Source of the DNA: an uncultured Thermoplasmatales archaeon
Lineage (GTDB): Archaea > Thermoplasmatota > E2 > DHVEG-1
DNA length: 64,000 nt
Assembly: GCA_964481275.1 (NCBI GenBank)
Contig: CAYZTD010000002.1
Span: 133,378-197,377, forward strand
Direction: 5' to 3'
Numbering within the stretch: the first letter of the stretch is position 1; every line of letters starts with the position of its first letter. Shown here one piece after another: positions 8,097 through 60,599 of the stretch. The translations under genes and the position numbers were made by a program. A model generated the notes under the pieces. The model did not search any database, was not told where the DNA came from, and saw only the letters and a program-made list of their open reading frames with translations.

Positions 8097-8660
8097 TTAG
8101 AGATTTAATAATCTACTAAAAATTGGTCGTTGTAAAATTCTTTGTAAGAGCACAAATATTGGATGTGTAAACATTTGTTTGGAATGAGAATCTGGTATTG
8201 GTTCTGGAGATGTAATTAAAATCTCACCAGCATATCCATCTATTTTTGTTATACGAGAGTATAATATTTTATCAGTTCCACTATATGAAATATCTCCTCC
8301 AATCATTGTGAAATCAAAAGAAACTGAACATCCAGGACCAAGTTCTATTTCACCATATTGTTTTGTATTAAGAATTAACTTACCTTGTTGTATACCTGTT
8401 TTTGTTGCGCCTTCAAATTCAAGACCATCTTGTATCCAGATAGCTAGTGTGTTAATAACTTCGGTCTTTATCATTCCTATTGCTTCAAAATCTTCACTTG
8501 TGTAAATTTCTGCAAAGACAATATAATACATATATGGGTCATCAGTAGGTTCTACATCAACTTGTTCCTCAATTTTTTTTGTTATGCCAAGACCACTTGA
8601 GACAAAACTTGCGCCAACTAACAATAGGACTAGTCCAAAAATTACTATAATTTTTCTCAT
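8097..8660 (-). CDS. small secreted protein with the shared C-terminal amphipathic tail
   Basis: Signal peptide (MRKIIVIFGLVLLLVGASFVSSG). The C-terminus is KQMFTHPIFVLLQRILQRPIFSRLLNL. Confidence 0.6.
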   Translation of the reverse strand: MRKIIVIFGLVLLLVGASFVSSGLGITKKIEEQVDVEPTDDPYMYYIVFAEIYTSEDFEAIGMIKTEVINTLAIWIQDGLEFEGATKTGIQQGKLILNTKQYGEIELGPGCSVSFDFTMIGGDISYSGTDKILYSRITKIDGYAGEILITSPEPIPDSHSKQMFTHPIFVLLQRILQRPIFSRLLNL

Positions 8661-20572: not shown

Positions 20573-22447
20573 ATGAAATTACTATTGATTCATAGCGACT
20601 TTATAGAATACGAAGTAAAAAATAAAGCAATAAAAAATCCAGAAGATACAGATAAAAAGAAAGATCGTTTTGATGAAGCATTAACATCTTTTACTGCCGT
20701 TGAAAAAATAGATGAAAAATCACCAAAAAAAGCAGTAAAACAAACAGTTAATGAAATAGTAAAGACAGCTGAGCGACTAAATGTCAAAAATATTATGTTG
20801 TATCCTTATGCTCATTTATCTTCTAATCTTGCAAGTCCAAAAAAAGCCCAAGAAATTTTAATTGAAATTGAATATGAACTTGCTCAAAAGAATTTTAATG
20901 TAAAGCGTTCGCCATTTGGTTGGTACAAAGCATTTAAAATTTCTTGTAAAGGGCATCCATTATCTGAACTTTCACGTGAAATTATTCCTGGTAAAGAAGA
21001 AACAGAGTCTTTGAAAAAGGAAAGAAAACTAAGCTCCTACTGGTACATACTTTCCGAAGATGGAAAATTACATGATGTCGGAAAATTTAATTTCAAGGGA
21101 TATGATAATTTAAAGAAATTTTCTTTTTATGAAAAAGAAAAATCAAGAGAGGTAAAAGGTGAACCTGCACATGTAAAACTCATGCAAAAACTAGAGATTG
21201 CTGATTATGAACCTGCATCTGATGTCGGAAATATGAGGTATTATCCCAAGGGAAGATTTATTAAAAAGTTAATTGAAGAATATGTGACAGATAGGGTAAT
21301 TGAATATGGTGGTTTGGAAGTAGAAACCCCAATTATGTATGATATGGAACATCCAACGTTATCAAAATATCTGGAGAGATTTCCAGCAAGACAATATCAA
21401 ATAGAATCAGATAAAAGAAATTTTTTCCTACGTTTTGCAGCATGTTTCGGGCAATTTTTAATGGCTCATGATGCAACTATAAGCTATAAAGCTCTACCGT
21501 TGAAGCTCTATGAACTTACTAAATATTCTTTTAGAAGAGAGCAATCTGGTGAACTTACTGGTCTCCGAAGACTTCGTGCTTTTACAATGCCTGATGTCCA
21601 TGCAATGGTTTCAGATATGGATATGGCAATAAATGAATTTAAGAAAAGATTTGATCTTAGTCTTTCAGTTCTAAAAAATATTGGAATTGAAAATTCTGAT
21701 ATAGAAATGGCTCTTAGAACAACTAAAGATTTCTATGAAAAAAATAAAGATTTTATACTTGATCTAGTAAAAAAACTTGGAAAACCAATTCTTGTTGAGA
21801 TGTGGGATGAAAGAATATTTTATTTTATTTTAAAATTTGAGTTTAACTTTGTTGATAACTCAGATAAAGCATCGGCATTAAGTACTGATCAGATTGATAT
21901 TGAAAATGGTGAAAGATATGATATTAATTTTACTGATAAAAATGGAGAACAAAAAAATCCTCTGATTCTTCATTGCAGTCCTTCTGGTGCTATTGAAAGA
22001 GTTATTTATGCACTTTTGGAAAAAGAAGCAATTAAAATGAATAAAGGAAAAAAACCAATGCTTCCAATTTGGCTTTCACCTACACAAATTCGTTTTATTC
22101 CTGTTGGTGATGACTTTGTATCTGATTGTGAGAAATTAGTTAATAAATTAAACATTTTGTCTGAATATCATATTGTTCGTTCAGATATAGATGATAGAGA
22201 AGAAAGCGTAGGAAGAAAAATACGAGATGCAGAAAAAGAATGGATTCCAATAATAATTGTTTTTGGAGATAATGAAAAACAAAGTAAAAAATTCAAACCA
22301 CGTTTTAGAAATAAAGATGTTGGAGAAGAAAAAGAATACAAAATTGAAGACATTCATAAAATTATACTTGAGAAAACAAGAAATTATCCACAGAAAAATC
22401 TACCTTTACCACTTTATCTATCAAAACGTCCAAAATTTAAAGGATAA
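20573..22447 (+). CDS. thrS: threonyl-tRNA synthetase, archaeal type
   Basis: 624 aa. It has an N-terminal archaeal-type editing domain and a class II core (motif 2/3 region FRREQSGELTGLRRLRAF...). The C-terminal anticodon-binding domain is present. Confidence 0.85.
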   Translation: MKLLLIHSDFIEYEVKNKAIKNPEDTDKKKDRFDEALTSFTAVEKIDEKSPKKAVKQTVNEIVKTAERLNVKNIMLYPYAHLSSNLASPKKAQEILIEIEYELAQKNFNVKRSPFGWYKAFKISCKGHPLSELSREIIPGKEETESLKKERKLSSYWYILSEDGKLHDVGKFNFKGYDNLKKFSFYEKEKSREVKGEPAHVKLMQKLEIADYEPASDVGNMRYYPKGRFIKKLIEEYVTDRVIEYGGLEVETPIMYDMEHPTLSKYLERFPARQYQIESDKRNFFLRFAACFGQFLMAHDATISYKALPLKLYELTKYSFRREQSGELTGLRRLRAFTMPDVHAMVSDMDMAINEFKKRFDLSLSVLKNIGIENSDIEMALRTTKDFYEKNKDFILDLVKKLGKPILVEMWDERIFYFILKFEFNFVDNSDKASALSTDQIDIENGERYDINFTDKNGEQKNPLILHCSPSGAIERVIYALLEKEAIKMNKGKKPMLPIWLSPTQIRFIPVGDDFVSDCEKLVNKLNILSEYHIVRSDIDDREESVGRKIRDAEKEWIPIIIVFGDNEKQSKKFKPRFRNKDVGEEKEYKIEDIHKIILEKTRNYPQKNLPLPLYLSKRPKFKG

Positions 22448-22533
22448 TTATTTTATCTCAATTTTATACCAAAAATTTTATATATAACTAGATATATCTT
22501 TATAGAAAACAATATTAATGGATGTGATAAAAT

Positions 22534-23310
22534 ATGAAAAAAATAATATGTCTGTTATTAGTAGGAACTCTGTTACTAATAGGTTTTTCCTCTGTTTTAG
22601 TAACAGGTTTAGAAGCAAGAAATGAAACAGATGATAAAACTGTTGAACCATCTGATTTTGAAATATCGGAAGTTAAATTAACCGAAGAAGAATTTGATGG
22701 AATATATAATTGGTGTGAAGATATTGAAGATGTTAATTTGAAAGAAGAAGTAAGACAAGCTTTGGACGACACAATCTCATCAGAACGTGTTTTATATGTA
22801 CAAAAATTGGAACAAAAATTGTCACAATTAGAATATAATCCATATACTGAAGAGGATTTAAGTACTCTAGGAATTCTTCCAGCTTTTACAATTATAAGGT
22901 GTGAATGGACAGTTTATGATGAAGGAGAAGCGGAAAGAACTATACATTTTTGGATTTTTGGTTGGGGTAGACATGAAATAACGTGGGATACTCTAGATGA
23001 TCATGATGGAGATGGAACATGGGATCTTGGTCCAGGAACTCCTTGGCGTTATGAATGGACTGCATTATTATTTCCACTAAGACACTATGATGATTGGTGT
23101 TATTGGAAGGGCTATCCTGCTGGTCAGGCAAGAGTTAAAGTAATGTATAGTGTGGATGGTGATTCAGATGAAAAAATATTTACAGAACCTGAAGATGAAA
23201 GCGATACAGTTTCAAAAGCACCACATATGCTTTTTAACCAACTAAAAACAATTCTATATAAATTGGAAAAATTTGCAAAAGTTTTGAAGATATTTGAAAA
23301 TATTTGGTAA
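22534..23310 (+). CDS. secreted hypothetical protein with the shared C-terminal tail
   Basis: Signal peptide (MKKIICLLLVGTLLLIGFSSVLV). Trp-rich. The tail is HMLFNQLKTILYKLEKFAKVLKIFENIW. Confidence 0.6.
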   Translation: MKKIICLLLVGTLLLIGFSSVLVTGLEARNETDDKTVEPSDFEISEVKLTEEEFDGIYNWCEDIEDVNLKEEVRQALDDTISSERVLYVQKLEQKLSQLEYNPYTEEDLSTLGILPAFTIIRCEWTVYDEGEAERTIHFWIFGWGRHEITWDTLDDHDGDGTWDLGPGTPWRYEWTALLFPLRHYDDWCYWKGYPAGQARVKVMYSVDGDSDEKIFTEPEDESDTVSKAPHMLFNQLKTILYKLEKFAKVLKIFENIW

Positions 23311-23850
23311 ATTTTTACCATTTTTTTTAATTAAATATAAGGATGTTTATAATTATTAGACTTTTAATTTATAATAAAACATGATTAAACATTTACAAAA
23401 ATGCATCTAATCCAAAGGATGCAAGTAGTTTTGTGTATTATTATGATTTGGTTCAGTTAGCTTTCTTTTTACATTTGATATATGCGGTAACATCGGATAT
23501 TATGTTGAAACTTATCTGGTCGATAATTGGAATTTTGGTATGTATATCTTAAAATTTGCAACAATGAAAATTCTCGTGCTTCAACTGACTATTTCTTAAA
23601 CGAAGTAACACCATAAGTAGGTATTATTAGTTTTAGAGCTGATAACTCTTATGATATTTCTCATAAGTAAACTCTACATAGATTATATAATCCTGGTTAA
23701 GTGATATATATAGAACAGATGAAAATAGCTATGTGACAATTAAAACAGATAAGTTATCGGAAATGAATACTATTTTGAGCTTTCTTCTAACAATCAAACT
23801 AAAGATTAGTTGTTGTACCATACAGATTGGCGGGGCTGTAATAACACAGG

Positions 23851-24011
23851 TTGGCTTGGTCCTTATCAATCAGGCGAAAATAAAACTACAAATCATACAT
23901 GTATTCGAGATGGAATATATAATAAAGGCAAAATCAACAGACGTATATGAGTATGAAAGTGATTGGAATCAATTAAATGTTGGAATGCCAAAAAAACAAA
24001 GATATATATGA
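23851..24011 (+). pseudogene. remnant of the 3' end of a PKD-domain protease gene (frameshifted fragment)
   Basis: A 37-nt exact match to 37299..37335 (encoding SDWNQLNVGMP) is present. Flanking similarity to the 3' end of the 35834..37429 gene is broken by frameshifts. The fragment lies in an 800-bp region with no other gene. Confidence 0.55.
23953..23989 (+). repeat. 37-nt exact repeat shared with 37299..37335
   Basis: atgaaagtgattggaatcaattaaatgttggaatgcc is identical at both loci. Confidence 0.85.
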
Positions 24012-24154
24012 TATCTTCAAAACTTTGCAAAATAATTATAAAAACATTTTTTTTATATTTCAATAGTTAATGAAACTATAAGATATTTTATCATGTTACC
24101 AATAGACATAAAAAAGATTTAATTATTTACCAAAACTAGGGGAAGTAACAATTT

Positions 24155-25285
24155 ATGATAAAAAGAGGAGAAATCCAAAAAATAGTGGATAATTACGATA
24201 AAAAAAATATTACTATTGGAGTTTTAGGTGGGCACTCAGGGCTTGATGTATCTCGCGGTGCAAAAAAACATGGGTTTAAAACTATAGCAGTATGTCAAAA
24301 AGGAAGAGAAAAAACCTATACTAACTACTATAAAACTAGAAAAGATGGTAGAGGATGTATTGATGAGACAATTGTATTGGATAAATTTTCAGATATTACA
24401 AAAAGAGAAGTTCAAGAAAAACTAAGGAAAAAAAATACAATATTTGTTCACAGTAGATATTTCTGGGTTTATTTTGATTTTAAAGATATTGAAAATAATT
24501 TCAAGGTCCCAATTTATGGTACACGTGGCATGGTAAAACTTGAAGAAAGAGATGTTCCTAAAAACCAGTATTATCTTCTTAAAAAAGCAGGGATAAGATA
24601 TCCAAAAATATACAAAAAACCAGAAGATATTGACAAACTTGTAATTGTAAAAGTAAATGAGGCAATGCGTGGATATGAAAGAGCTTTTTTCTTTGCAGCA
24701 AGTTTTGATGAATATACAAAAAAATCAGATGATATGCTTAAAAAGAAATTGATTACAAAAGAAGCACTTGAAAAAAGTGTTATAGAAGAATATATTGTAG
24801 GAGCTCAAATAAATTTTAATTATTTTTATAGTGTTATTGATGATGAACTAGAAATTATGGGTACAGATACACGTCGTCAGACTAATTTAGATGGTCTTTT
24901 AAGACTTCCAGCAAATGAACAACTTGAGGTTTTAAAATATCTTAAACCTAAAATGATTGAAACAGGACATATTGCAGCAACAACAAAAGAAAGCATTATT
25001 GAAAAAATCTTTAATCTTGGTGAAAAATTTGTAAGAGCAACTAAAAAAGAGGTTCCACCAGGAATAATTGGGCCTTTTGCCCTACAAGGTAGTATAGCTG
25101 CAGATAGAGGTAAAGAAGAGATGGTGGTATTTGATGTATCGATGCGCATTCCTGGAAGTCCTCTGACTCGTTTTACACCTCACAGCGGTTATCTTTACTG
25201 TGATAGCATTAGTTATGGTGAAAGAGTTGCAATGGAGATCAAAAAAGCAATTGAAACAGATAGATTAAAAGAAGTTGTTACATAA
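24155..25285 (+). CDS. purP: 5-formaminoimidazole-4-carboxamide ribonucleotide (FAICAR) synthetase PurP, ATP-grasp
   Basis: N-terminus NITIGVLGGHSGLDVSRGAKKHGFKT and a length of about 376 aa match archaeal PurP. Confidence 0.8.
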   Translation: MIKRGEIQKIVDNYDKKNITIGVLGGHSGLDVSRGAKKHGFKTIAVCQKGREKTYTNYYKTRKDGRGCIDETIVLDKFSDITKREVQEKLRKKNTIFVHSRYFWVYFDFKDIENNFKVPIYGTRGMVKLEERDVPKNQYYLLKKAGIRYPKIYKKPEDIDKLVIVKVNEAMRGYERAFFFAASFDEYTKKSDDMLKKKLITKEALEKSVIEEYIVGAQINFNYFYSVIDDELEIMGTDTRRQTNLDGLLRLPANEQLEVLKYLKPKMIETGHIAATTKESIIEKIFNLGEKFVRATKKEVPPGIIGPFALQGSIAADRGKEEMVVFDVSMRIPGSPLTRFTPHSGYLYCDSISYGERVAMEIKKAIETDRLKEVVT

Positions 25286-25332: not shown

Positions 25333-26703
25333 ATGAAAAATAAGATACTAGTTGTTATTTTAGCATTGATAATATCTTTTTCTACAATTTCAATTGGAAA
25401 AACTATTGTAACAGAAAAGGAAAATAAAAAAAAATTTTTGAAACAAAATAATACTGTTAATTGGACTGTAATGTATTATTTATGTTGCGATTCTAATATG
25501 TATGATTATGGAGATATGATATTAGAAAATTTATCAAAATTCGGTTCAAAAGATGATTTCAATTTAGTAGCACTATATGATGGAATATACTATGGTGATT
25601 CAAAAGTAATATATTTTAATTATAAAGGTGAAAAAGTCATTTTAAATGATGTTATAGGATGGCCAGATGAAGTTGATTATAGTAACCCCATAGTTTTTGA
25701 AGAATACTGTAAAAAAGTAATCGAGCTTTACCCAGCAGAACATTATGCATTTATAACCTATGGTTCTGCTGGAACTGGATGGCAAATATATTGTGTTCAT
25801 GACAGAACTGATGGTAAAACTGGTTTTTCTATACCACGTCTTGGAAAGGCTTTTAAAAATATAACAAAAAATGGAGAAGAAAAAATAGATGTTATATTTA
25901 CCTCATGTGCAATGAATGCAATAGAACTTGCATATGAAATATCTTCATATGTGGATTACATTGTTGGAACTCAGGATTGTTTATCAAAAGATTTTCCCTA
26001 TAGATTCTATAAACCAATATGGTCTTTATATAATAATACAAGTTTAAACCCAGAAGAATTCGCAAAAATTGTACCAGAACAACTTAGACCCCTTTCATTT
26101 TTTTATAGAGAGTCATATGAAGGAAAATTACCTTTAATTAGTAAAATACTAAATAAATTACCATTTAAAGGACTTCATACAGTAATGCATCATGATAATA
26201 CCGGTGTTGTAAATAACTCGAATATTAATAGACTTATTCAATCTGTTGATGACTTATCAAGATATTTGGCTTTGGAAATTAAAGATAAAGAAATAATAAA
26301 TAATATAAAAACAGCAAGAGATAAAGTAAGAGAAAGCGGTAAATGTAATGTTAAATATAATTTTCTTCCAATTGTTTTAATTCAAAAAAATCTTTGTTTG
26401 GAATTTTTATCATATGATGCCTTTATTGATCTATATGATTTTTGTGAAATATTAAAAAATACAACAGAAAATGATTTTTTAAAAATATACTGTGGATATG
26501 TTATGAAAAACATGAATTTAACAGTTCCATATATTAAAACTACAGAAAATGATCCTTTACATGGATTAAATATTTATTTTCCAGAAAATAAAAGAATGTA
26601 TAATATGGATCTTTTAAATGGTCCACTTCCTTGTTTATATGAAGAATTATTTTTTTCAAAAGATACGTGTTGGGATGAATTTCTAAAAGCCTATTACAAC
26701 TAA
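25333..26703 (+). CDS. secreted clostripain-like (peptidase C11 family) protein, possibly lacking the catalytic His
   Basis: Signal peptide present. It aligns to the 35834..37429 C11 paralog. Catalytic-Cys context TSCAM matches DACLM, but the WDHGSGW His motif is replaced by YGSAGTGW. Confidence 0.65.
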   Translation: MKNKILVVILALIISFSTISIGKTIVTEKENKKKFLKQNNTVNWTVMYYLCCDSNMYDYGDMILENLSKFGSKDDFNLVALYDGIYYGDSKVIYFNYKGEKVILNDVIGWPDEVDYSNPIVFEEYCKKVIELYPAEHYAFITYGSAGTGWQIYCVHDRTDGKTGFSIPRLGKAFKNITKNGEEKIDVIFTSCAMNAIELAYEISSYVDYIVGTQDCLSKDFPYRFYKPIWSLYNNTSLNPEEFAKIVPEQLRPLSFFYRESYEGKLPLISKILNKLPFKGLHTVMHHDNTGVVNNSNINRLIQSVDDLSRYLALEIKDKEIINNIKTARDKVRESGKCNVKYNFLPIVLIQKNLCLEFLSYDAFIDLYDFCEILKNTTENDFLKIYCGYVMKNMNLTVPYIKTTENDPLHGLNIYFPENKRMYNMDLLNGPLPCLYEELFFSKDTCWDEFLKAYYN

Positions 26704-26830
26704 TTTTTTTTATCTCCAATCTTTTTTTCCATTTTAACTTAAACATAATTGTTTTTATAATAATGTTATAAAAATGCCAAAAGATTTATATATATTATAA
26801 ACTCTTTTTATAATTCTGATGTGATATAAT

Positions 26831-28687
26831 ATGGGGAATAAAGAAAGGGTATTTAGAACTATTTTAGTTGCATTTTTTATGCTGTCTATAGGAACAAGTA
26901 GTTTTTTTATAGAAAATAATGTTAAAGCCGATGAGGAAACAGATTTTCTATCCGGAAGAGATATAGAACTTCTTTGTGGATTTGTTCCACCAGATAACTG
27001 GTGGAAGGATGCAAATTTTTATTTTATGAAATCATCAGGGGGTCAACCATCAAGTTTTGACTGGCGTGATAAAGGGGGAGTAACCCCTGTTAAAGATCAG
27101 GGAAATTGCGGCAGTTGCTGGGCTTTTGGAACTGTGGCACCACTGGAAAGCGCTATAAAAATACGTGAAGGAATAACTGTTGATCTGTCAGAACAATGGC
27201 TTGTTAGCTGCAATCGTGATGGATGGGGTTGTGGTGGTGGCTGGTGGGCTCATAACTATCATCAATGGAAAACAGGTAAATGCGGAGGATTTGGAGCAGT
27301 ACTTGAGGATGATTTTCCATATAGCGCTTCAGATGAATCCTGTGGTGGTCCATATGATCATCCATATATAGTTGAGGATTGGGCTTTTATAGGTGGAGAA
27401 GGAAGTGTTCCTCCAACAGAGGATATAAAACAAGCAATAATTGACTATGGTCCAGTTTCAGCAGCCGTGCGGGTTACAAATGACTGGAATGGTTATGATG
27501 GAAGTTATGTTTATGACAATGACGCCTCTGGAAATGTAAATCATGCAATAACTATTGTTGGATGGGATGACAACATGGGATCTGACGGTGCGTGGATTAT
27601 CAAAAATAGCTGGGGTCCTAGATGGGGGGACAACGGTTACATGTACATCGAATATGAATGTAGCCGTGTTGGATATTCAGCTTGTTTCGTAAATGGCTAT
27701 CACGGACCTCCAATTGAAAGCAAGGAAAAAATAACATTTACTGTAGAAGAAATAACAAACGATCCAAATAGAGGAAATTTTGATCCCATCGAACCACCTT
27801 TTAATAAACCAGAATGGTATTATCGAGTCGGAACTGCAGTATCAGGTGAGACCAAACAGCAATTTAACTATAACATGTGGACTGAAAATCTTGGAAATTT
27901 TGGATATAATTCAGAATATACTTGGAAACCACAAGAAAATCATGTTTTTTATACAGGTGAACCAACAATTGATGTAACATTTAAGCTAATGGAAAATGAT
28001 AAATTTTTTGAAGAGGGAATAATTTTTAAAGATGATCTTGCTGATGTAAGTGCTTTTCCTGGTGGAGGAAAAGATAATGATATATCTGATTATAGACCTG
28101 CAATTTATCATGGAACATACAACCTTGTCACAGGTGAACTAACAGGTGATGATACATCTGGTCCTGACTCCCAAGGAAATTATATAACTTTGGGTGATGG
28201 AATCAATAATGCAAAGGTATGGTTTAAGATAACAGATAGTTACAATGAGGATTTGTATGAGCCAGATATCCATGTTTCACCATCAAAATTAAGTTTTGGA
28301 GAAGTGAATCAGGGTGAAAATCCATCAAAAACATTCTCGATTGAAAACCTAGCTAATTTTGATGAAAACGAATGGCAAAAGCTAGATTGGACTGCATCTG
28401 ATAACAAAAATTGGATAAGTCTTAGTAAAACATCTGGTTCTTTAAATGGTGGACAGAGTGACATAGTTGCAGTTACATTAGATACAGATCAACTTCAAAA
28501 AGGAAATGATTACTCTGGAACAATAACAGTAGATTCAAATGATGAAACAAAAACAATAAGCGTCAGTGTGACAATCAAAAAATCATCATCAATAGAAAAT
28601 CCATTTTACATCTTTTTACAGAATCTTTACCAAAAAGTCATTGAATTCTTACAGAGATTAATGCCAAACAACATTCTAAATCTGTAA
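26831..28687 (+). CDS. secreted papain-family (C1A) cysteine peptidase with C-terminal extension domains and the shared tail
   Basis: Catalytic triad contexts are present: QGNCGSCWAFG (Cys), NHAITIVGWDD (His) and IIKNSWGPRWG (Asn). Signal peptide present. A C-terminal ~160-aa domain is shared with 34039.. and 37419.. proteins. The tail is ENPFYIFLQNLYQKVIEFLQRLMPNNILNL. Confidence 0.85.
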   Translation: MGNKERVFRTILVAFFMLSIGTSSFFIENNVKADEETDFLSGRDIELLCGFVPPDNWWKDANFYFMKSSGGQPSSFDWRDKGGVTPVKDQGNCGSCWAFGTVAPLESAIKIREGITVDLSEQWLVSCNRDGWGCGGGWWAHNYHQWKTGKCGGFGAVLEDDFPYSASDESCGGPYDHPYIVEDWAFIGGEGSVPPTEDIKQAIIDYGPVSAAVRVTNDWNGYDGSYVYDNDASGNVNHAITIVGWDDNMGSDGAWIIKNSWGPRWGDNGYMYIEYECSRVGYSACFVNGYHGPPIESKEKITFTVEEITNDPNRGNFDPIEPPFNKPEWYYRVGTAVSGETKQQFNYNMWTENLGNFGYNSEYTWKPQENHVFYTGEPTIDVTFKLMENDKFFEEGIIFKDDLADVSAFPGGGKDNDISDYRPAIYHGTYNLVTGELTGDDTSGPDSQGNYITLGDGINNAKVWFKITDSYNEDLYEPDIHVSPSKLSFGEVNQGENPSKTFSIENLANFDENEWQKLDWTASDNKNWISLSKTSGSLNGGQSDIVAVTLDTDQLQKGNDYSGTITVDSNDETKTISVSVTIKKSSSIENPFYIFLQNLYQKVIEFLQRLMPNNILNL

Positions 28688-29431: not shown

Positions 29432-30700
29432 TTATAATTCTATTTTTTCGTATTCTTCATTTGCCATTTTAATAAAATTGTAATATTTTTCTGGGTTATT
29501 TCTGTTTAGATTATTTATAGCTTTTTTTTGAAAATTTATGGCATTTTTAAAAAAGATTTGATTTTTACAACTTAAATTCATTCCTAAATATCTTTGATAT
29601 TTATTAAAAGTAATTTTAGTATAGTTAAAACATCTGTCAGATAGATTTTTTTCAACTAATTTTTTTTCTTCAGTAAACATCTGTGATTTACTACCTTCTT
29701 TACAATCTATGTAATAAGGTCTGACATTGTTGTTTTCTATCCATATCCATCTTTCTTCTCCTTTCATTAATGGGAAAATATAATCTGTTTTTGTATCATT
29801 TTCGTCTTGTGGATAACATATACGATTAATTATCTGTCTTTTAGTTTCGTATGGAGTTTCACCTTTGGTTGTATCAAGTAAGACCCAGCCATAGTCTGGA
29901 ACATAGTATTCAACCATATAATGCATCTGAGTCCAAAAACCTTGATCATTATTTACAAGTAAAACTCTTGATGGAATGTTTTTGTTTCTTAAAAGTGCAC
30001 AGGCCAGATGAGACCTACCTACATTCTCTCCATTAATAAAAAGAGTAGTTAATGCATCTTGTGAAAAAAAGAGTCCTGTTCTTAATTGTATTAAAAACAA
30101 TATGGATCTATGGTTTTTAATAAAAGAAGAAACCCGATCTGCGTAACTAATCAGATTGTTATGAAATAATTTTATTTGCATAGCTTTTAATTTTATGAAG
30201 ATATTGTTAGTTTGAACTACATCTGTTTCAGATAGCCATTTCTTTGTGTTTTTTGGGAGGTTTTCTTTTTCTTGAAATTCAACTGTTTCAGGTAATTCAT
30301 TGAATTCCTTATTTTCAACTAATACCCATACTGTAAAATGAATAAGTTTTTTTTCATCTTTATACATTTTATTTACTGTAAAATTTACAAATTTATTAGG
30401 TTCTAAAGTGTCATTTATTATTCTATAATTTATTATATCTGCTGTACTGTCATTATATATTTCTAGCAGTATTGGTACTTGATAATTATAGATTGGTGGA
30501 AATGCATAGCTAATGTTAAAGACGTCTGTGTTTTCTTCGGCTAAAAGATCAAGATAGTGTTCAACTCTTAATAAAAATATTTCAGATTTAGTATTGATGT
30601 TTTTCTTTATATCTATTGAAGCAACTTTAGCATTATAAAAAAAACTAAGCGAGATAAGAAAAATAGTTATCAATATAACTAATTTTTTTTTCTTCGACAT
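29432..30700 (-). CDS. secreted transglutaminase-like cysteine protease-fold protein
   Basis: Signal peptide present. The transglutaminase-core Cys/His/Asp contexts are present (GRSHLACALL, QMHYMVEYYVPDYGWV, LLDTT). Confidence 0.6.
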   Translation of the reverse strand: MSKKKKLVILITIFLISLSFFYNAKVASIDIKKNINTKSEIFLLRVEHYLDLLAEENTDVFNISYAFPPIYNYQVPILLEIYNDSTADIINYRIINDTLEPNKFVNFTVNKMYKDEKKLIHFTVWVLVENKEFNELPETVEFQEKENLPKNTKKWLSETDVVQTNNIFIKLKAMQIKLFHNNLISYADRVSSFIKNHRSILFLIQLRTGLFFSQDALTTLFINGENVGRSHLACALLRNKNIPSRVLLVNNDQGFWTQMHYMVEYYVPDYGWVLLDTTKGETPYETKRQIINRICYPQDENDTKTDYIFPLMKGEERWIWIENNNVRPYYIDCKEGSKSQMFTEEKKLVEKNLSDRCFNYTKITFNKYQRYLGMNLSCKNQIFFKNAINFQKKAINNLNRNNPEKYYNFIKMANEEYEKIEL

Positions 30701-33110: not shown

Positions 33111-33665
33111 TTAACAATTTATTATTCTTTTTTCAGTGACAATTATCTCAACTGGTTTGTCATGTTTATTTATTGGTATTTTATTTATTATCTGAAATTC
33201 AAAAGTAAGACCTATAGTTTTTGCATTTGTTTTTTTAAGTAATCTATCATAGTAACCTTTTCCGTGTCCAAGTCTATTTCCTTTTTTGTCAAATGCTAAT
33301 CCTGGAACTATTATTAAATCAATTTCATCAATTGATATTTCTTTTATACATTCTTTTTTTGGCTCTAAAATATTATGTGAACCAAGACATAGTTCTTCCC
33401 AACTTTTAAGATTTGATAAAGTAAGAGAACGGTCATTTTTGTTACTAACTGGTACAACAATATTTTTTTTATAAAGCAGTTCACAAATCATATCGTGAGT
33501 AAAAACCTCAGCGTCATAAGAAATATAAAAAAGAATAGTATCTGCATCCCTGAATTCTGTTAATCCAAACAATCTTTCTTTTATTTCTTTGCTTTTTTTT
33601 CTATTTTCTTCTTTTGAAAGTCCTCTTCTTTTTTCTTTTATTTCTTTTCTTATCTTTTCTTTCAT
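33111..33665 (-). CDS. 5-formyltetrahydrofolate cyclo-ligase (MTHFS) family protein
   Basis: C-terminal GLAFDKKGNRLGHGKGYYDR is the 5-FTHF cyclo-ligase signature. Confidence 0.75.
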   Translation of the reverse strand: MKEKIRKEIKEKRRGLSKEENRKKSKEIKERLFGLTEFRDADTILFYISYDAEVFTHDMICELLYKKNIVVPVSNKNDRSLTLSNLKSWEELCLGSHNILEPKKECIKEISIDEIDLIIVPGLAFDKKGNRLGHGKGYYDRLLKKTNAKTIGLTFEFQIINKIPINKHDKPVEIIVTEKRIINC

Positions 33666-34038: not shown

Positions 34039-35802
34039 ATGAGTTCAAATAAAAATACTAATAATCTTTTTGTAAAAAAGTTGATAGTAAAGAAAATATC
34101 TATATTAACTATAATTTTTTGTTTATTAACAATTTCATTTTTTAACCCTCTTACTATGGCATTACAATCAAAAAGTGAAATTTTAGAAAAAAATAGGGAA
34201 TTATCATTGGGAGATGGAATAGATTTTTCAATTGTTATACATAGGATAGAACAAATTGACGAAATAGATCCTTCTATACATGGTGAAGCTGATTGGACCT
34301 TAAGGATGTATGTAAACAACCAAAAACAAACTTTTGAATGTGAGGGGGATTCAGTTGTAGTTGATAAATGTTTTACTTGGGAAAAAATAATACAAGATGA
34401 CACAGAAGAATTAGATATAAAAATGGAACTAAAAGATAGAGATCCTTGGCCTGATGTTGATGATATAGCAGATATAAGTGCTTATCCTGATCTTTCTTAT
34501 GAAGATAAAGATTATGATGATACAACCGATTTTGAAAATAATAGACCTGCAGTTTTCAAAAGAACATATAATATACTAAATAAAACCTGGAAAGATGAAG
34601 ACGAAGAAAACGATTATTTAAAATGGGATGATGATTCAATTTTAGGGTGGTGGATTACTTCAGGTATTTTTGATGGGAGTACTAATAGAGACGAAAATGA
34701 TGCTCAGATATGGTTTAATATTTCTATAGAAAATAAACCTCCTTATCCACCAGAAAAACCTTCAGGTCCTACAATAGGATGGGAAAATACGGTATATGAA
34801 TTTAGCACAAAATCTCACGATCCAAATGGAGAAAAAATCCAATTTGGGTGGGATTGGGATTTTGATGGTGAAGTTGATGAAATAACTGGATTCTATGAAT
34901 CATGGGAAACCGCCAGTATTTATCATAGTTGGTCTAAAGCAAAAATTTACCATATACGTGTTTTAGCCATAGACTCACATGGTTTAACTAGTGAATGGTC
35001 TGAACCACTTAAAATTGAGATAAACGGCATTAATGGCAAATCAGGAATGGATATTCAAGATTGGAGTATGGGCCATGTTTATTCAATTTATTTTAATCAT
35101 CATGAAACCCAGGAAATAATAAGATCCCTAAGAAGTGGGGGAAATATTGTAGCAGCTGTTGCGACAATAATCACAACAATTGCAGCGATGAGTGGTGTAC
35201 CACTTGATATAAGCGCGGCGACAGCACTTGCTGGAGCTATAATACGTTTAGGAGTAGAAGTTATAAATTTAATGGATCATGGAATGGGAATATATGTCCG
35301 AATATATTTGGTTGAGATTGAAGGAGTGCCTATTGCATATTTTGCATATATATGGTCTCAATCTATGACTGCTAACGAGGGTGAATCTCCTGAAGGAAAT
35401 AAATCACCAGATGTCCCTTCTAAACCAGAATGCGATTCAAACTTTTTCTTAGTAGAAAATGAATATACTTTTACATGCCAAGCTACTGATCCAGATGGAG
35501 ATAAAGTTAATCTTCTTATTAGTTGGGGGGACGAAAATTACACTTGGACTGATTTAGTAAATTCAAATACTGAAATAACTGTTCACCATAAATGGAATAA
35601 AAAAGGATCCTATAATGTTAAAGTAAAAGCATTTGATGAATATGGAAATGAAAGCAGTTGGTCTGAATCTCTAACACTGAAAGTAAGTAAGGCTAAATCA
35701 AAATCAACAATTAATCTTAGTTTAAGAGAAAATTTATTTCTTACAATTTACAAAATATTAAATTTATTTGAGAAAAATTTTACAGATTTAATACCAAAAT
35801 AA
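34039..35802 (+). CDS. secreted PKD-domain protein carrying a shared ~160-aa unknown domain and the shared C-terminal tail; first gene of a three-gene secreted operon
   Basis: Signal/anchor sequence present. Unknown domain (ADWTLRMYVNN...DDIADISAYPD...NRDENDAQIWFNI). PKD domains (PPEKPSGPTIGWENTVYEF...FGWDWDFDG; LISWGDENYTW...VKVKAFDEYG). The tail is NLFLTIYKILNLFEKNFTDLIPK. Confidence 0.8.
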   Translation: MSSNKNTNNLFVKKLIVKKISILTIIFCLLTISFFNPLTMALQSKSEILEKNRELSLGDGIDFSIVIHRIEQIDEIDPSIHGEADWTLRMYVNNQKQTFECEGDSVVVDKCFTWEKIIQDDTEELDIKMELKDRDPWPDVDDIADISAYPDLSYEDKDYDDTTDFENNRPAVFKRTYNILNKTWKDEDEENDYLKWDDDSILGWWITSGIFDGSTNRDENDAQIWFNISIENKPPYPPEKPSGPTIGWENTVYEFSTKSHDPNGEKIQFGWDWDFDGEVDEITGFYESWETASIYHSWSKAKIYHIRVLAIDSHGLTSEWSEPLKIEINGINGKSGMDIQDWSMGHVYSIYFNHHETQEIIRSLRSGGNIVAAVATIITTIAAMSGVPLDISAATALAGAIIRLGVEVINLMDHGMGIYVRIYLVEIEGVPIAYFAYIWSQSMTANEGESPEGNKSPDVPSKPECDSNFFLVENEYTFTCQATDPDGDKVNLLISWGDENYTWTDLVNSNTEITVHHKWNKKGSYNVKVKAFDEYGNESSWSESLTLKVSKAKSKSTINLSLRENLFLTIYKILNLFEKNFTDLIPK

Positions 35803-35833: not shown

Positions 35834-37429
35834 ATGAAAACTAATAAATTACTTTTAATAGCAATTTTTTTTATGCTGTTAAACACGTTAATAGCTAATG
35901 CAGGTTATGTACGAATTGGAGGAAATGAAAACAAATTTTTTGATAATTTAAAACTAGAGACTTCTTCTAATTCTAAATGGACTGTCATGGTTTATATGGA
36001 TGCAGATAATGATCTTGAACAATTTGCAATATATAATTTCTTACAGATGTCTGAAATAGGATCAACAGATGAAGTAAATATTGTTGTTCAACTTGATAGG
36101 ATTCCTGGCTATGATAACAGTTATGATGATTGGACCTCGGCTAAACGTTATTACATTCAGAAGAATATGGTACCAAACTCCAACAGTGCTTTAATGGATA
36201 TTGGGGAAGTAGATATGGGGGATTGGAATACATTAAAAGATTTTTACAATTGGGCTGTTTATAATTATCCTGCAGAAAAATATTGTCTCATTCTCTGGGA
36301 TCATGGTTCAGGCTGGAAAATGGGTGGAGAAACGACTTCTCCCTTTAAATGTATCTGTTCAGATTTTACAAATGGTGGAGTTATGTCTCTTCAGGATTTA
36401 AAAAATGGTTTAGATTCGATAACCCAACAAGGTAGAAATCCAATAGATTTAATATGTTTTGATGCTTGTTTAATGCAGATGATTGAAGTAGGATATGAAA
36501 TTAGATATTGTGCAGATTATATGACTGCCTCAGAGGAAGTTGAAACTGCTTATGGTTTAACCTATGATGATGCACTTTATCTATTAACTGAAGATGCTAA
36601 TGTTTCAGCTGATATCCTTGGAAGTTATTTTGTTAATTCTTATAAATATGAAACAATGTCAACAGTAGATCTACAAACTTTTGATTATCTAAAAGATGCG
36701 GTTAATAATTTAGGTAGCCACTTACAAGCTGAGGAATATAAGAGTTATATCAAGAATGCTATAAGGGATGTTGAGACCTATTACGATTATGATTTTGTGG
36801 ATTTATATGATTTTGCAAATCTATTAAAAAATTATATAGATGATTCAAATATCGATTATAAAGCAGATATGGTCATGGCTGGAGTAAATCAAGCTGTGCT
36901 TTATGAAAAACATGATTATAATCATCAAAGATCTCATGGTATCTCAATATATATGCCCTATAGAGAGTATGATTTTGCTTATGGTGATATTAGTTTTGCT
37001 ATGGATTCTTCATGGGATGAGTTTGTTATGTGGTATTTTGGCGGTAGTACAGGTAACGAACCAGAGATTCCTGAGATTGATGGTCCCGGATCTGGTAGTG
37101 TAGGGGTAGAATACGGCTATAGATTTCTTTCATCCGATCCTGATGATGACGATATATATTATTATGTTGAATGGAGTGATGGACAGAGTAGTGGTTTAAT
37201 TGGTCCTTATCCTTCAGGACAAGAAATTGTTTTATATCACAGCTGGGAAAATGAAGGATGGTATTTAGTTAGGGCAAAGGCAGTAGACGAGCATGGCCAT
37301 GAAAGTGATTGGAATCAATTAAATGTTGGAATGCCTAAGAAAAAATGTGTTTTTAAACAAAATACTATTCTGTTTTATTTATTTGAAAAATTTTTTGAAA
37401 AAATAACTGATTTATATTTTGGAGTGTGA
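35834..37429 (+). CDS. secreted clostripain-family (C11) cysteine peptidase with a C-terminal PKD domain and the shared tail
   Basis: Signal peptide present. Catalytic-dyad contexts LILWDHGSGW (His) and LICFDACLMQ (Cys). PKD domain (EIDGPGSGSVGVEYGYRF...YYYVEWSDG...RAKAVDEHG). The tail is NTILFYLFEKFFEKITDLYFGV. Confidence 0.85.
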   Translation: MKTNKLLLIAIFFMLLNTLIANAGYVRIGGNENKFFDNLKLETSSNSKWTVMVYMDADNDLEQFAIYNFLQMSEIGSTDEVNIVVQLDRIPGYDNSYDDWTSAKRYYIQKNMVPNSNSALMDIGEVDMGDWNTLKDFYNWAVYNYPAEKYCLILWDHGSGWKMGGETTSPFKCICSDFTNGGVMSLQDLKNGLDSITQQGRNPIDLICFDACLMQMIEVGYEIRYCADYMTASEEVETAYGLTYDDALYLLTEDANVSADILGSYFVNSYKYETMSTVDLQTFDYLKDAVNNLGSHLQAEEYKSYIKNAIRDVETYYDYDFVDLYDFANLLKNYIDDSNIDYKADMVMAGVNQAVLYEKHDYNHQRSHGISIYMPYREYDFAYGDISFAMDSSWDEFVMWYFGGSTGNEPEIPEIDGPGSGSVGVEYGYRFLSSDPDDDDIYYYVEWSDGQSSGLIGPYPSGQEIVLYHSWENEGWYLVRAKAVDEHGHESDWNQLNVGMPKKKCVFKQNTILFYLFEKFFEKITDLYFGV

Positions 37430-60571: not shown

Positions 60572-60599
60572 ATCAGTGGTTCAAATCCACTCCCCGCTA
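60473..60599 (+). tRNA. initiator-type tRNA-Met (anticodon CAU) interrupted by a ~52-nt non-canonical intron between the acceptor stem and D arm
   Basis: The contiguous 3' part has D arm GGGG-UAGCCAGGAAA-UCCC, anticodon arm ACGGG-CCCAUAA-CCCGU with three G-C pairs, T arm AGUGG-UUCAAAU-CCACU and 3' acceptor CCCCGCU-A. The only complementary 5' acceptor strand (GGCG/GGG) lies about 52 nt upstream at 60473. Confidence 0.6.

What the first reader, a model, noticed from the sequence alone, without database searches (positions are those of the whole stretch)
25333..28687. Tandem secreted cysteine peptidases: a C11-like paralog possibly lacking the catalytic His, next to a papain-like C1 enzyme
25333..26703 aligns along its length with the active-looking clostripain-like protein at 35834..37429. 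It keeps the Cys context (TSCAM vs FDACLM). In place of WDHGSGW it has YGSAGTGW, so the His of the His-Gly motif appears to be lost. It may be a pseudo-protease such as an inhibitor, chaperone or binding module. It sits directly upstream of a papain-family peptidase with an intact Cys/His/Asn triad. The window encodes four different cysteine-peptidase folds (C1, two C11, one C13-like at 63033) plus a transglutaminase-like protein, all secreted. That is a striking density for a small AT-rich archaeal genome and suggests dependence on host or prey protein degradation.
Basis: partly seen in the sequence, partly recalled or inferred. Interest (0 to 1): 0.55.

Follow-up and report, generated by a model that had tools for sequence, protein, structure and literature searches.

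The report
Clostripain-like protein missing its catalytic histidine
A secreted archaeal protein with the clostripain (C11) protease fold has lost the catalytic histidine but keeps the catalytic cysteine, and it belongs to a large group in sediment Thermoplasmata where this is the rule, so many genes counted as "clostripains" in these archaea may not be ordinary proteases.

Summary
ORF 25333..26703 is a Peptidase_C11 homologue in which the catalytic His is Ala146 (YGSAGTGWQ vs DHGSGW), the S1 Asp is Thr190 and the nucleophile Cys192 is kept. ORF 26831..28687 is an intact papain-type C1 peptidase.

The His loss is not a one-off. In about 200 unique Thermoplasmata sequences (the "G-x-G-W-Q superclade") Cys192 is invariant. 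The His site takes 15 different residues, keeps His in only 15%, and evolves like an unconstrained position. An S1-pocket position (216) is Cys or His in 91%. The window protein lies in the most derived clade (Gly/Ala146, Cys216+Cys338). The gene is under purifying selection (dN/dS about 0.15).

Adjacency to the C1 gene is not conserved. The conserved slot is ThrRS–PurP–[this gene]–FTHF ligase.

"Four folds" is really two, and the "C13-like" ORF is Pfam C14. Dense secreted cysteine peptidases are already documented for MBG-D/Thermoprofundales, so no host or prey need be invoked.

Best reading: a secreted non-canonical C11 homologue, most likely not a His/Cys peptidase, that keeps a remodelled thiol pocket.

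The parts
25333..26703 (+). His-less C11 (clostripain-family) homologue, 456 aa, 'crown' clade of the Thermoplasmata G-x-G-W-Q superclade
   Evidence: ORF. Pfam PF03415 E 1.1e-18. AF2 model pLDDT 93.1, with the best PDB fold matches all C11 enzymes (9CIP, 6N9J, 6MZO, 6NAG; Foldseek E about 1e-15). 43 homologues at 35-71% identity.
25333..25398 (+). N-terminal signal peptide or membrane anchor (MKNK + ILVVILALIISFSTISIG)
   Evidence: Read from the sequence: Kyte-Doolittle maximum 3.0 over the N-terminal 35 residues. A comparable hydrophobic N-terminus is present across the family. No dedicated predictor was available.
25759..25785 (+). Degenerate His-Gly loop Y143-G-S-A146-G-T-G-W-Q151. Ala146 (25768..25770) occupies the catalytic His position.
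   Evidence: Pairwise and profile alignments. His site defined as Trp150 minus 4. Gly147, Trp150 and Gln151 are nearly frozen, while position 146 shows 34 parsimony changes.
25798..25800 (+).
   Evidence: His in only 15 of 40 family members. The following Asp157 is conserved, also in canonical C11.
25897..25914 (+). Nucleophile motif F-T190-S-C192-A-M. Cys192 is at 25906..25908. Thr190 (25900..25902) replaces the S1 Asp.
   Evidence: Cys invariant in 196 of 197 superclade sequences, with zero parsimony changes. Role of the Cys-2 Asp: PmC11 Asp177 and clostripain Asp229 (PMC4850288; PMC11296011).
25975..25980 (+). Asp215-Cys216 at the C-terminal end of the strand next to the Cys strand. By homology this is an S1-pocket wall position (about PmC11 residue 203/204).
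   Evidence: Position 216 is Cys (99) or His (80) in 197 superclade sequences, against T/V/Y/L in canonical C11. The mapping uses chain-index arithmetic on the 3UWS_B/6MZO alignments and the published pocket residues.
26344..26346 (+). Cys338 in a family-specific C-terminal-domain loop (ESGKC), the predicted partner of Cys216
   Evidence: Cys216 and Cys338 co-occur (38 both, 1 Cys216 only, 0 Cys338 only, 19 neither; phi 0.96). The tree shows a single origin, so this is weak as covariation evidence.
26491..26493 (+). Cys387, near-universal in the superclade except group E
   Evidence: 80-100% per group; Lys/Arg in group E.
26704..26735 (+). Oligo-T tracts just after the stop codon (TTTTTTTTATCTCCAATCTTTTTTTCC), resembling an archaeal terminator. 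An AT-rich TATA-like stretch follows, upstream of the C1 start.
   Evidence: Read from the sequence. Inference only.
26831..28687 (+). Secreted papain-family (C1A) peptidase with Gln90 (27098..27100), Cys96 (27116..27118), His238 (27542..27544) and Asn259 (27605..27607). It also has an unannotated middle domain of about 150 aa, a BACON/choice-of-anchor-D Ig-like domain and a C-terminal tail. Pfam detected no I29 prodomain.
35834..37429 (+). Canonical C11 paralogue with His157 (36302..36304), Asp210 and Cys212 (36467..36469), plus a PKD-like C-terminal region and tail
20573..25285 (+). ThrRS (20573..22447) and PurP (24155..25285), the upstream anchors of the conserved syntenic slot
   Evidence: Pfam. 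tblastn synteny in 12 loci.
33111..33665 (-). 5-formyltetrahydrofolate cyclo-ligase, the downstream anchor of the slot in related genomes. Here it is displaced by the C1-hexapeptide transferase-TGase-LPG synthase/methyltransferase block.
63033..64000 (+). Partial secreted Big_7 + Peptidase_C14 (caspase-type) protein with SGHG and DACYSG motifs.

Best explanation
ORF 25333..26703 encodes a secreted (or N-terminally anchored) protein with the full clostripain (C11, clan CD) fold. It can no longer work as a canonical His/Cys, Arg/Lys-specific peptidase. The general acid/base His is Ala, the acidic S1 determinant is Thr, and no conserved basic autoprocessing site follows the His loop.

It is not a decaying gene. 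It is the most derived branch of a Thermoplasmata-specific radiation of C11 homologues. In that radiation the His became dispensable early and was then lost repeatedly, the nucleophile Cys stayed under absolute constraint, and the S1-pocket loops acquired new His/Cys residues.

In the window's clade the pocket wall residue is Cys216. It appeared together with Cys338 on a C-terminal-domain loop and probably ties that loop to the pocket through a disulfide or a shared ligand.

I therefore read the protein as a non-proteolytic (or at most very weakly proteolytic) C11 homologue. It uses a remodelled, thiol-containing former active-site pocket to bind a ligand, probably a peptide or protein, rather than cleave it. 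It acts independently of the neighbouring C1 peptidase.

Shown: fold, residue replacements, family-wide pattern, purifying selection, synteny. Inferred: loss of peptidase activity, pocket geometry, the Cys216-Cys338 link, a binding role.
For: Fold and family:
- Pfam C11.
- AF2 model pLDDT 93, with C11 structures as top PDB matches.

His and Asp replaced, Cys kept.

Mutational evidence from characterised C11 enzymes:
- Site-directed mutagenesis showed globupain H132 and C185 to be critical for activation and activity (PMC10104074).
- PmC11 C179A is catalytically inactive (PMC4850288).
- Asp177 (PmC11) and Asp229 (clostripain) are the predicted S1 residues.
- The C11 motif is given as His-Gly...Ala-Cys (PMC12445089).

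Family-wide pattern:
- In 197 unique superclade sequences, Cys is present in 196 and His in 29. The His site otherwise holds K, G, A, W, Y, C, M, F, V, R, Q, N, L or P.
- On a 199-taxon NJ tree there are at least 8 His gain/loss events and 34 residue changes at site 146 (39th percentile of column variability), against 0 at Cys192.
- Position 216 is Cys or His in 91% of sequences.

Gene is functional:
- dN/dS is 0.15 in the one unsaturated pair, against 0.05 for PurP.
- The four former active-site loops are more conserved than random segments (2.8 vs 2.3 bits; 1.4% of random placements reach this).

Independence from the C1 gene: contexts; terminator-like T tracts.
Against: - No activity data exist.
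- The absolute conservation of Cys192 and the tight conservation of the pocket loops are also what one would expect of an enzyme that still does chemistry.
- The Cys216-Cys338 pairing arose once, so it is not independent covariation.
- The S1-pocket assignment of position 216 rests on sequence alignment with a one-residue ambiguity.
- The sequences come from the top hits of three searches. They are a biased sample, not a census.
Confidence: 0.55

Rival explanations
1. It is still a hydrolase with a rewired catalytic centre. Cys192 remains the nucleophile and another group supplies the acid/base function or a metal. Candidates are His216/His55 in groups A-C, Lys146 in group E, and a Cys192/Cys216/Cys338 cluster or His156/His282 in the window's clade. 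The loss of the S1 Asp would then reflect a changed specificity.
For: - Cys192 is invariant while His146 is free to vary.
- Group B (25 sequences) keeps the acidic S1 residue and His216 although position 146 is Trp/Tyr/Phe.
- His55 sits next to the equivalent of PmC11 Asn50 in 62-85% of groups A-C.
- Position 216 aligns with the PmC11 S1 wall, near Thr204.
- The pocket loops are conserved above background.
- There is purifying selection.
Against: - The window's own clade has neither His216 nor His55 nor an acidic S1 residue.
- No His is universally conserved in that clade. His282 is Gln in the closest relatives P0003-P0006, and His156 is present in 15 of 40.
- To my knowledge no clan CD enzyme with a relocated His or a Cys-Lys dyad has been described.
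- The literature search found none.
Confidence: 0.25
2. It is a dedicated partner of the adjacent papain-family C1 peptidase, acting as an inhibitor, chaperone or prodomain substitute.
For: - The two genes are adjacent and co-directional in the window.
- Pfam detects no I29 prodomain in the C1 enzyme.
- A C1-hexapeptide transferase-TGase block lies within 2-4 kb of the orthologous slot in L004 and L029.
Against: - Adjacency is unique to the window. In L004 and L029 a convergent FTHF ligase gene (and an AAA gene in L004) lies between them.
- L005 has the slot without any C1 gene.
- Family copies in other contexts (L006/L007: HypA | gene | deoxyhypusine synthase) have no C1 gene in the DNA held.
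- Oligo-T tracts and a separate AT-rich promoter-like region separate the genes.
- The C1 protein carries the shared C-terminal tail and the His-less C11 does not, which suggests different destinations.
Confidence: 0.07
3. It is a structural or decaying relic with no selected function tied to the former active site, i.e. a neutral pseudoenzyme on its way to loss.
For: - It evolves faster than its neighbours: 31-56% identity in the syntenic slot against 80-87% for PurP.
- The His site shows many different replacements.
Against: - The ORF is intact in more than 40 clusters and about 28 GTDB species.
- dN/dS is about 0.15.
- Cys192, Gly147, Trp150, Gln151 and Asp157 are almost invariant.
- The AF2 model is high-confidence.
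Confidence: 0.03

Closest known systems
Family C11 (clostripain family, clan CD): clostripain (9CIP), PmC11 (3UWS), the B. thetaiotaomicron C11 enzymes (6N9J, 6NAG), globupain
   Same: Same domain (Pfam PF03415 over nearly the full length). Same predicted fold, including the C11-specific C-terminal domain. Same position and sequence context of the nucleophile Cys. Secreted, with an N-terminal signal. Conserved Asp157 after the former cleavage loop, and the conserved HGLxIYFP and WDEF motifs.
   Different: Catalytic His replaced (Ala here). Ser-Cys instead of Ala-Cys. S1 Asp replaced by Thr. No conserved Lys/Arg autoprocessing site. Invariant Gln after Gly-x-Gly-Trp. Cys/His at pocket position 216. 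Family-specific insertions (residues about 268-290 and 332-342).
Inactive zymogen C11 protease of Parabacteroides distasonis (6MZO)
   Same: One of the closest solved structures (Foldseek E 6.9e-15, TM 0.70 on the target). An uncleaved C11 with the loop after the His strand intact is an inactive state, and the window protein, lacking a cleavage site, may resemble it permanently.
   Different: 6MZO keeps the His/Cys dyad and the S1 Asp.
Clan CD pseudoenzymes (c-FLIP, pseudo-orthocaspases of cyanobacteria). From my own knowledge; not tested here.
   Same: Caspase-fold homologues that have lost dyad residues yet are conserved and functional as regulators.
   Different: As I recall, those generally lose the Cys or both dyad residues and are intracellular. 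Here the Cys is the most conserved residue of the protein, only the His is lost, and the protein is secreted.
Genes annotated as 'clostripain (C11)' in MBG-D/Thermoprofundales genomes (e.g. Thermoplasmatales archaeon SCGC AB-539-N05, SG8-52-1)
   Same: Members of the same G-x-G-W-Q superclade. P0226 (AB-539-N05) has TDCGSGWQ / MTC / SEEH. P0289 (SG8-52-1) has SSNKGSGWQ / ETC / PEC.
   Different: They belong to other groups (C and E) than the window protein (crown). In the literature they are counted as extracellular peptidases (PMC6461988) without comment on the missing His.

Membership tests
MEROPS family C11 / Pfam Peptidase_C11 (homology) | Significant match to the family model over the catalytic and C-terminal domains | tested here: met
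   PF03415 E 1.1e-18, 68.4 bits against a cut-off of 25.8, residues 49-452 on profile positions 2-357 of 359. The profile hits clostripain at E 7.6e-21.
MEROPS family C11 / Pfam Peptidase_C11 (homology) | [quoted passage not shown] | tested here: met
   AF2 pLDDT 93.1, pTM 0.89. The top 12 PDB matches are all C11 chains.
Active C11 peptidase | Catalytic His in the His-Gly motif at the end of the strand preceding the Cys strand | tested here: not met
   Ala146 in YGSAGTGW. Absent in all 43 close homologues. The motif definition comes from PMC12445089 and PMC4357240.
Active C11 peptidase | Nucleophile Cys in the Ala-Cys motif | tested here: met
   Cys192 is present and invariant. The preceding residue is Ser rather than Ala.
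Active C11 peptidase | Acidic S1 residue two positions before the Cys (PmC11 Asp177, clostripain Asp229), giving Arg/Lys specificity | tested here: not met
   Thr190 here, and non-acidic in all 46 crown sequences classified (Thr/Val/Gly in the sequences listed).
Active C11 peptidase | Autoprocessing at a Lys/Arg in the loop after the His strand | tested here: inconclusive
   The loop 152-168 is the least conserved of the segments scored (1.65 bits). Lys162 is present in the window protein but is not conserved. Cleavage itself cannot be tested here.
Active C11 peptidase | Peptidase activity | not testable with these tools
   Needs recombinant protein.
Papain family C1A (neighbour 26831..28687) | Gln-Cys-His-Asn catalytic residues in their conserved motifs | tested here: met
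   QGNCGSCW, NHAI and NSWG align with cathepsin H (E 1.6e-37). Residues are Gln90, Cys96, His238 and Asn259.
Papain family C1A (neighbour 26831..28687) | I29-type inhibitory prodomain | tested here: not met
   No Inhibitor_I29 hit in Pfam. Only about 40 residues lie between the signal peptide and the mature domain. A partial alignment to the end of the procathepsin K propeptide starts at residue 40.
Pseudoenzyme (conserved catalytically impaired homologue) | At least one essential catalytic residue lost, with the gene kept under purifying selection | tested here: met
   His loss. dN/dS 0.15. Orthologues in about 28 GTDB species.

The most novel reading that the evidence does not exclude
The window protein is the end-point of an active-site migration on the caspase/clostripain fold.
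- At the base of the Thermoplasmata G-x-G-W-Q superclade, new His residues (216 and 55) entered the S1 pocket and took over or changed the chemistry. They could act as a relocated acid/base or as ligands of a Cys-His-His type metal site.
- This freed the canonical His to drift (W/Y/F/C/M/K...).
- In the crown clade the His ligands were swapped for a Cys216-Cys338 pair around the invariant Cys192.

If so, these are not dead proteases. They would be a new catalytic or redox/metal-binding variant of clan CD. Part of the 'clostripain' inventory used to infer protein degradation by sediment archaea would then do something else.
Probability: 0.15. Interest if true: 0.8.

Novelty: new variant of a known kind. 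Interest (0 to 1): 0.55.

Why it matters
C11 peptidases are described as having a universally conserved His/Cys dyad (PMC10104074; PMC12445089).

Here a radiation of about 200 unique sequences in sediment Thermoplasmata breaks that rule in an unusual way. The nucleophile Cys is the most conserved residue, while the His site evolves neutrally.

This matters in two ways.
1. Enzymology. The group is either a large natural set of Cys-retaining pseudo-proteases or a rewired clan CD active site. Both are directly testable with a few recombinant proteins.
2. Microbial ecology. Genes of this group include the one named clostripain in the MBG-D single-cell genome SCGC AB-539-N05. They are counted as extracellular peptidases when protein degradation by benthic archaea is inferred from genomes (PMC6461988). 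Those counts should be checked for catalytic residues.

Tried and rejected
1. Measuring distances around Cys192 in the AF2 model. The model is good (pLDDT 93), but its coordinates are not exposed (/data holds only FASTA).

2. His156 as a substitute His. Rejected as a family-wide feature (15 of 40). It cannot be excluded for this single protein.

3. His282 (LHTV, in a family-specific insertion) as a substitute His. Present in 34 of 40, but Gln in the window's closest relatives P0003-P0006 and rare in groups A and B.

4. A Cys192-Cys216 disulfide. Cys216 tracks Cys338 instead.

5. A Cys192-Cys387 structural disulfide as the reason for Cys192 invariance. Group E lacks Cys387 but keeps Cys192.

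6. A conserved operon with the C1 peptidase. Not found.

7. A first tabulation of the S1 position by HMM column was off by one residue and was redone from raw-sequence offsets.

8. An all-against-all dN/dS run timed out. It was redone on 8 pre-selected pairs, and only one pair has unsaturated dS.

9. AF2 of the C1 protein's unannotated middle domain from a 3-sequence alignment failed (pLDDT 36), so no fold search was run on it.

10. A PDB sequence search for the TGase-like neighbour found nothing.

11. NCBIfam gave no hit for the His-less C11 and no model for the shared C-terminal tail.

12. Literature searches for a described His-less C11 clade found none. The library does not cover subscription journals.


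Full report
**1. What is there**

ORF 25333..26703 (+, 456 aa) and ORF 26831..28687 (+, 618 aa) exist as described.
- The first matches Pfam Peptidase_C11 over almost its whole length (E 1.1e-18).
- The second matches Peptidase_C1 (E 7.7e-49), followed by an Ig-like BACON_2/choice-of-anchor-D domain.
- ORF 35834..37429 is a stronger C11 match (E 8.5e-43).

BLASTP between the two C11 proteins aligns residues 1-216 (26% identity, E 6e-16) and 364-455 (33%, E 6e-10).
- ITYGSAGTGW pairs with ILW-DHGSGW.
- FTSCAM pairs with FDACLM.

So the catalytic His is Ala146, the S1 Asp is Thr190, and the nucleophile Cys192 is kept.

A profile of the family against all PDB sequences places the same position on the His of SHGDGW (6N9J) and SHGTGW (6MZO), and on the limanHGG segment of clostripain (9CIP).

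An AlphaFold2 model built on 46 sequences is confident (pLDDT 93.1, pTM 0.89). Its 12 best PDB matches are all C11 enzymes (Foldseek E down to 1e-15).

The C1 neighbour aligns with cathepsins H and K with Gln90, Cys96, His238 and Asn259 in place.

**2. The His loss is a family trait**

The first homologue search found 43 proteins at 35-71% identity, one of them named as a Thermoplasmata archaeon.
- None has His in the motif. The replacements are A, G, C, Q and Y.
- All have the Cys.
- His282, in a family-specific insertion, is His in 34 of 40 but Gln in the window's nearest relatives.

A scan of one genome per GTDB species found the family (31% identity or more) almost only in Thermoplasmata/Thermoplasmatota MAGs from sediments and vents. 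Some genomes hold two copies.

**3. A larger superclade with a free-running His site**

Sampling the basal branches (second homologue search with P0042), together with the 50%-identity representatives and the GTDB loci, gave 197 unique sequences that share the motif G-x-G-W-Q. I located the sites by raw offsets, taking the His site as Trp150 minus 4 and the S1 site as Cys192 minus 2.

| Site | Superclade (197 sequences) | Canonical C11 domains in the same sample (174) |
|---|---|---|
| Cys192 | 196 (the one exception is a one-residue alignment offset, GFDTCR) | 168 |
| His site | His 29; otherwise K47, G44, A18, W17, Y9, C7, M6, F5, V5, R4, Q2, N2, L1, P1 | His 156 |
| Cys-2 acidic | 103 | 148 |
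| Position 216 | Cys 99, His 80 (91% together) | Mostly T/V/Y/L; His 6; Cys not among the ten commonest residues |

On an NJ tree of 199 sequences, Fitch parsimony needs at least 8 changes of His presence/absence and 34 residue changes at site 146.
- That puts site 146 at the 39th percentile of column variability, i.e. an average, unconstrained site.
- Its neighbours Gly147 (3 changes), Trp150 (2) and Gln151 (4) are almost frozen.
- Cys192 has no change at all.

Six groups can be told apart.

| Group | n | Site 146 | Cys-2 | Position 216 | Other features |
|---|---|---|---|---|---|
| A | 21 | His | mostly acidic | His | His55 common |
| B | 29 | Trp/Tyr/Phe | mostly acidic | His | His55 common |
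| C | 31 | Cys/Met/Gln/Arg/Tyr/Gly (grouped as non-His) | mostly non-acidic | His | |
| D | 8 | Val | non-acidic | Asp | |
| E | 48 | Lys/Arg | Glu | Cys | about 580 aa; most with a PKD domain |
| Crown | 46 | Gly/Ala | Thr/Val/Gly | Cys | Cys338, Cys387, Cys51 |

The window protein is in the crown group (A-T-C-A-C-C at positions 146/190/192/193/216/338).

Cys216 and Cys338 co-occur almost perfectly (phi 0.96). The pair arose only once, so this is a shared derived pair rather than repeated covariation.

Cys387 is near-universal except in group E, which still keeps Cys192. So Cys192 is not conserved merely as a disulfide partner of Cys387.

**4. Where these positions lie**

In all clan CD enzymes the dyad sits at the C-terminal ends of two adjacent strands (PMC4357240).

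In PmC11 the S1 pocket is lined by Asn50, Asp177 and Thr204, with Gly134, Met205 and Asp207 contributing (PMC4850288).

By alignment:
- family position 54 corresponds to Asn50;
- position 190 corresponds to Asp177;
- position 147 corresponds to Gly134;
- position 216 (always Cys192 + 24) corresponds to residue 203 or 204 of PmC11, with a one-residue ambiguity.

So the new His/Cys residues at 55 and 216 are in loops that wall the S1 pocket next to the Cys. This is inference from homology.

In clostripain a C-terminal-domain loop projects toward the active site (PMC11296011). That makes a tether between position 216 and a C-terminal-domain loop (Cys338) plausible.

**5. Is the gene functional?**

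Yes.
- In the only pair with unsaturated synonymous divergence (L009/L010), dN/dS is 0.15, against 0.05 for the adjacent PurP. More distant pairs give 0.10-0.20 with dS near saturation.
- The four former active-site loops are more conserved than random segments of the same lengths (2.8 vs 2.3 bits; 1.4% of random placements reach this). Strand ends are often conserved for structural reasons, so this is weak evidence.

**6. Genomic context**

A conserved slot, ThrRS - PurP - [C11 homologue] - FTHF cyclo-ligase (reverse strand), is found in 12 loci.
- In that slot PurP is 80-87% identical to the window's and ThrRS 60-84%. The C11 homologue is only 31-56% identical.
- The slot holds different groups in different genomes:
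  - crown: window, L004/L008, L009, L010;
  - a Gly146/Cys193/His216 form: L015;
  - group C: L025, L028, L029;
  - a sequence that still has His146 (with His216; it branches among group C sequences in the tree): L026;
  - group B: L033.
- So either the active site turned over in place among orthologues, or paralogues replaced each other in the slot.

Other copies lie in unrelated contexts, for example HypA | gene | deoxyhypusine synthase.

The C1 gene is adjacent only in the window. In L004 and L029 a C1 - hexapeptide transferase - TGase block lies beyond the FTHF ligase. L005 has the slot without C1.

In the window, oligo-T tracts follow the stop codon and an AT-rich TATA-like stretch precedes the C1 start. 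A dedicated partnership with the C1 enzyme is therefore poorly supported.

**7.

- The ORF at 63033 is Big_7 + Peptidase_C14, with SGHG and DACYSG motifs.
- C11 and C14 belong to clan CD, while C1 and transglutaminase cores share the papain-like fold. The window therefore has two folds.
- The window also carries genes for purine synthesis (PurP, FGAM synthase), glycine cleavage, a GHMP-family kinase, UbiD and aconitase-type enzymes. This does not look like a host-dependent reduced genome.
- Secreted C1A, C10, C11, C13, C14B and C25 peptidases have been reported for MBG-D/Thermoprofundales and interpreted as detrital protein degradation (PMC6461988).
- The superclade includes P0226, named 'Peptidase C11, clostripain' in Thermoplasmatales archaeon SCGC AB-539-N05. 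That is one of the Aarhus Bay MBG-D single-cell genomes. It reads TDCGSGWQ / MTC / SEEH.
- It also includes P0289 from SG8-52-1, which reads SSNKGSGWQ / ETC / PEC.

**8. Interpretation**

In characterised C11 enzymes both dyad residues matter.
- Globupain H132 and C185 were shown by mutagenesis to be critical for activation and activity.
- PmC11 C179A is catalytically inactive.
- The Cys-2 Asp is held to set Arg/Lys specificity.

The window protein lacks the His, the Asp and a conserved cleavage site. It is therefore most likely not a canonical peptidase (confidence about 0.55). I read it as a secreted C11-fold protein whose remodelled thiol pocket binds rather than cleaves.

The main rival (about 0.25) is a rewired but still catalytic site. 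What favours it:
- the absolute conservation of Cys192;
- the retention of the acidic S1 residue and His216 in group B despite loss of His146;
- the Cys/His character of position 216.

What weighs against it for this protein: the crown clade has no conserved His at all.

The partner-of-C1 idea (about 0.07) and neutral decay (about 0.03) are weak.

**9. Novelty**

- Dyad-defective C11 domains are not rare as such. In the sample, tandem-domain proteins have Cys-to-Ser domains.
- A large, secreted, selectively maintained clade with invariant Cys and a drifting His was not found in the literature searched.
- It also contradicts the statement that all C11 proteases show a conserved dyad.

I classify it as a new variant of a known kind, of moderate interest. 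It is directly testable, and it is a caution for peptidase inventories of benthic archaea.

Noticed in passing
C-termini of ORFs 4343..5647(+), 5833..7206(-), 8097..8660(-), 22534..23310(+), 26831..28687(+), 34039..35802(+), 35834..37429(+), 37419..39803(+), 52538..53566(-); also L029, L014, L004, L010: Nine signal-peptide proteins in the window end in a shared tail of about 25-30 aa: a Lys/Ser-rich linker followed by an amphipathic hydrophobic segment, for example ...ENPFYIFLQNLYQKVIEFLQRLMPNNILNL and ...NTFFDFLQQYPGIFEFIQRILKF. Similar tails close secreted proteins in related genomes (L014 ...GPFLNYLQNFLTGHPSLFPILQRLILRLGLQ). No Pfam or NCBIfam model covers it. The His-less C11 lacks it. It could be an undescribed C-terminal sorting or anchoring signal of this lineage. 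A tail HMM hit 12 C-termini and 0 internal control segments at E<=0.01, but 10 of the 12 are the training tails themselves (nine, plus L001, a copy of the window's C1 gene); the other two are in L029.
   Followed up: partly
window 63..791 (+): This PKD-domain ORF ends in ...NQPGFEILAMFAAIAIALIILKKKK. That looks like a PGF-CTERM (archaeosortase A) signal, so the organism seems to use at least two different C-terminal tail types for surface or secreted proteins. The PGF-CTERM assignment is from my own knowledge of the motif.
   Followed up: no
window 29432..30700 (-), residues 220-276: The secreted transglutaminase-like neighbour has INGEN226VGRSHLAC234ALLRNKNIPSRV. When aligned to the Transglut_core consensus as I remember it (G-x-C-x-x-F-A...L-L-R-x-x-G-I-P-A-R), the nucleophile Cys position is Asn226. 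Asn226 is invariant in 60 orthologues, and His260 is also invariant. This is possibly a second non-canonical 'cysteine hydrolase' in the neighbourhood. The mapping was not verified against the Pfam model, and there was no PDB sequence match.
   Followed up: partly
window 27794..28270 (C1 protein residues about 322-480); 38646..39185; 34225..34749: An unannotated domain of about 150 aa (PEWYY...KLMDxD...DDLADVS...YxGTYNL...NDAKIWF) is shared by the C1 peptidase and two PKD-domain proteins (36% identity, E 2e-24, and 35%, E 8e-06). There is no Pfam hit. AF2 from the three copies failed (pLDDT 36), with mostly beta-strand predicted.
   Followed up: partly
window 23909..23999 vs 37257..37345: A 91-nt stretch between ORF 22534..23310 and PurP is 79% identical to the 3' part of the canonical C11 gene. 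The small ORF 23733..24011 ends ...ESDWNQLNVGMPKKQRYI, against ...ESDWNQLNVGMPKKKCVF in the C11 gene. It is probably a remnant of a duplicated gene end.
   Followed up: partly
P0269-P0314, P0079-P0083, P0103 (group E; e.g. P0289 of Thermoplasmatales archaeon SG8-52-1): A large subgroup of C11 homologues of about 580 aa, most with a PKD domain, has Lys (or Arg) at the catalytic His position (SSNKGSGWQ), Glu at the S1 position (IETCMT) and Cys at position 216 (YPECA). All three are highly conserved. It is unclear whether Lys can replace the His.
   Followed up: partly
P0064, P0070, P0074, P0085, P0100, P0146, P0172 (representative proteins): Long multi-domain proteins (950-2200 aa) with several C11 domains include domains where the nucleophile Cys is Ser or Asp (DASFM, DADLM) while the His is kept. 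This is the opposite kind of dyad defect from the window protein.
   Followed up: no
window 60530..60599 (+): The only Rfam match at gathering threshold in the window is a single tRNA gene.
   Followed up: no
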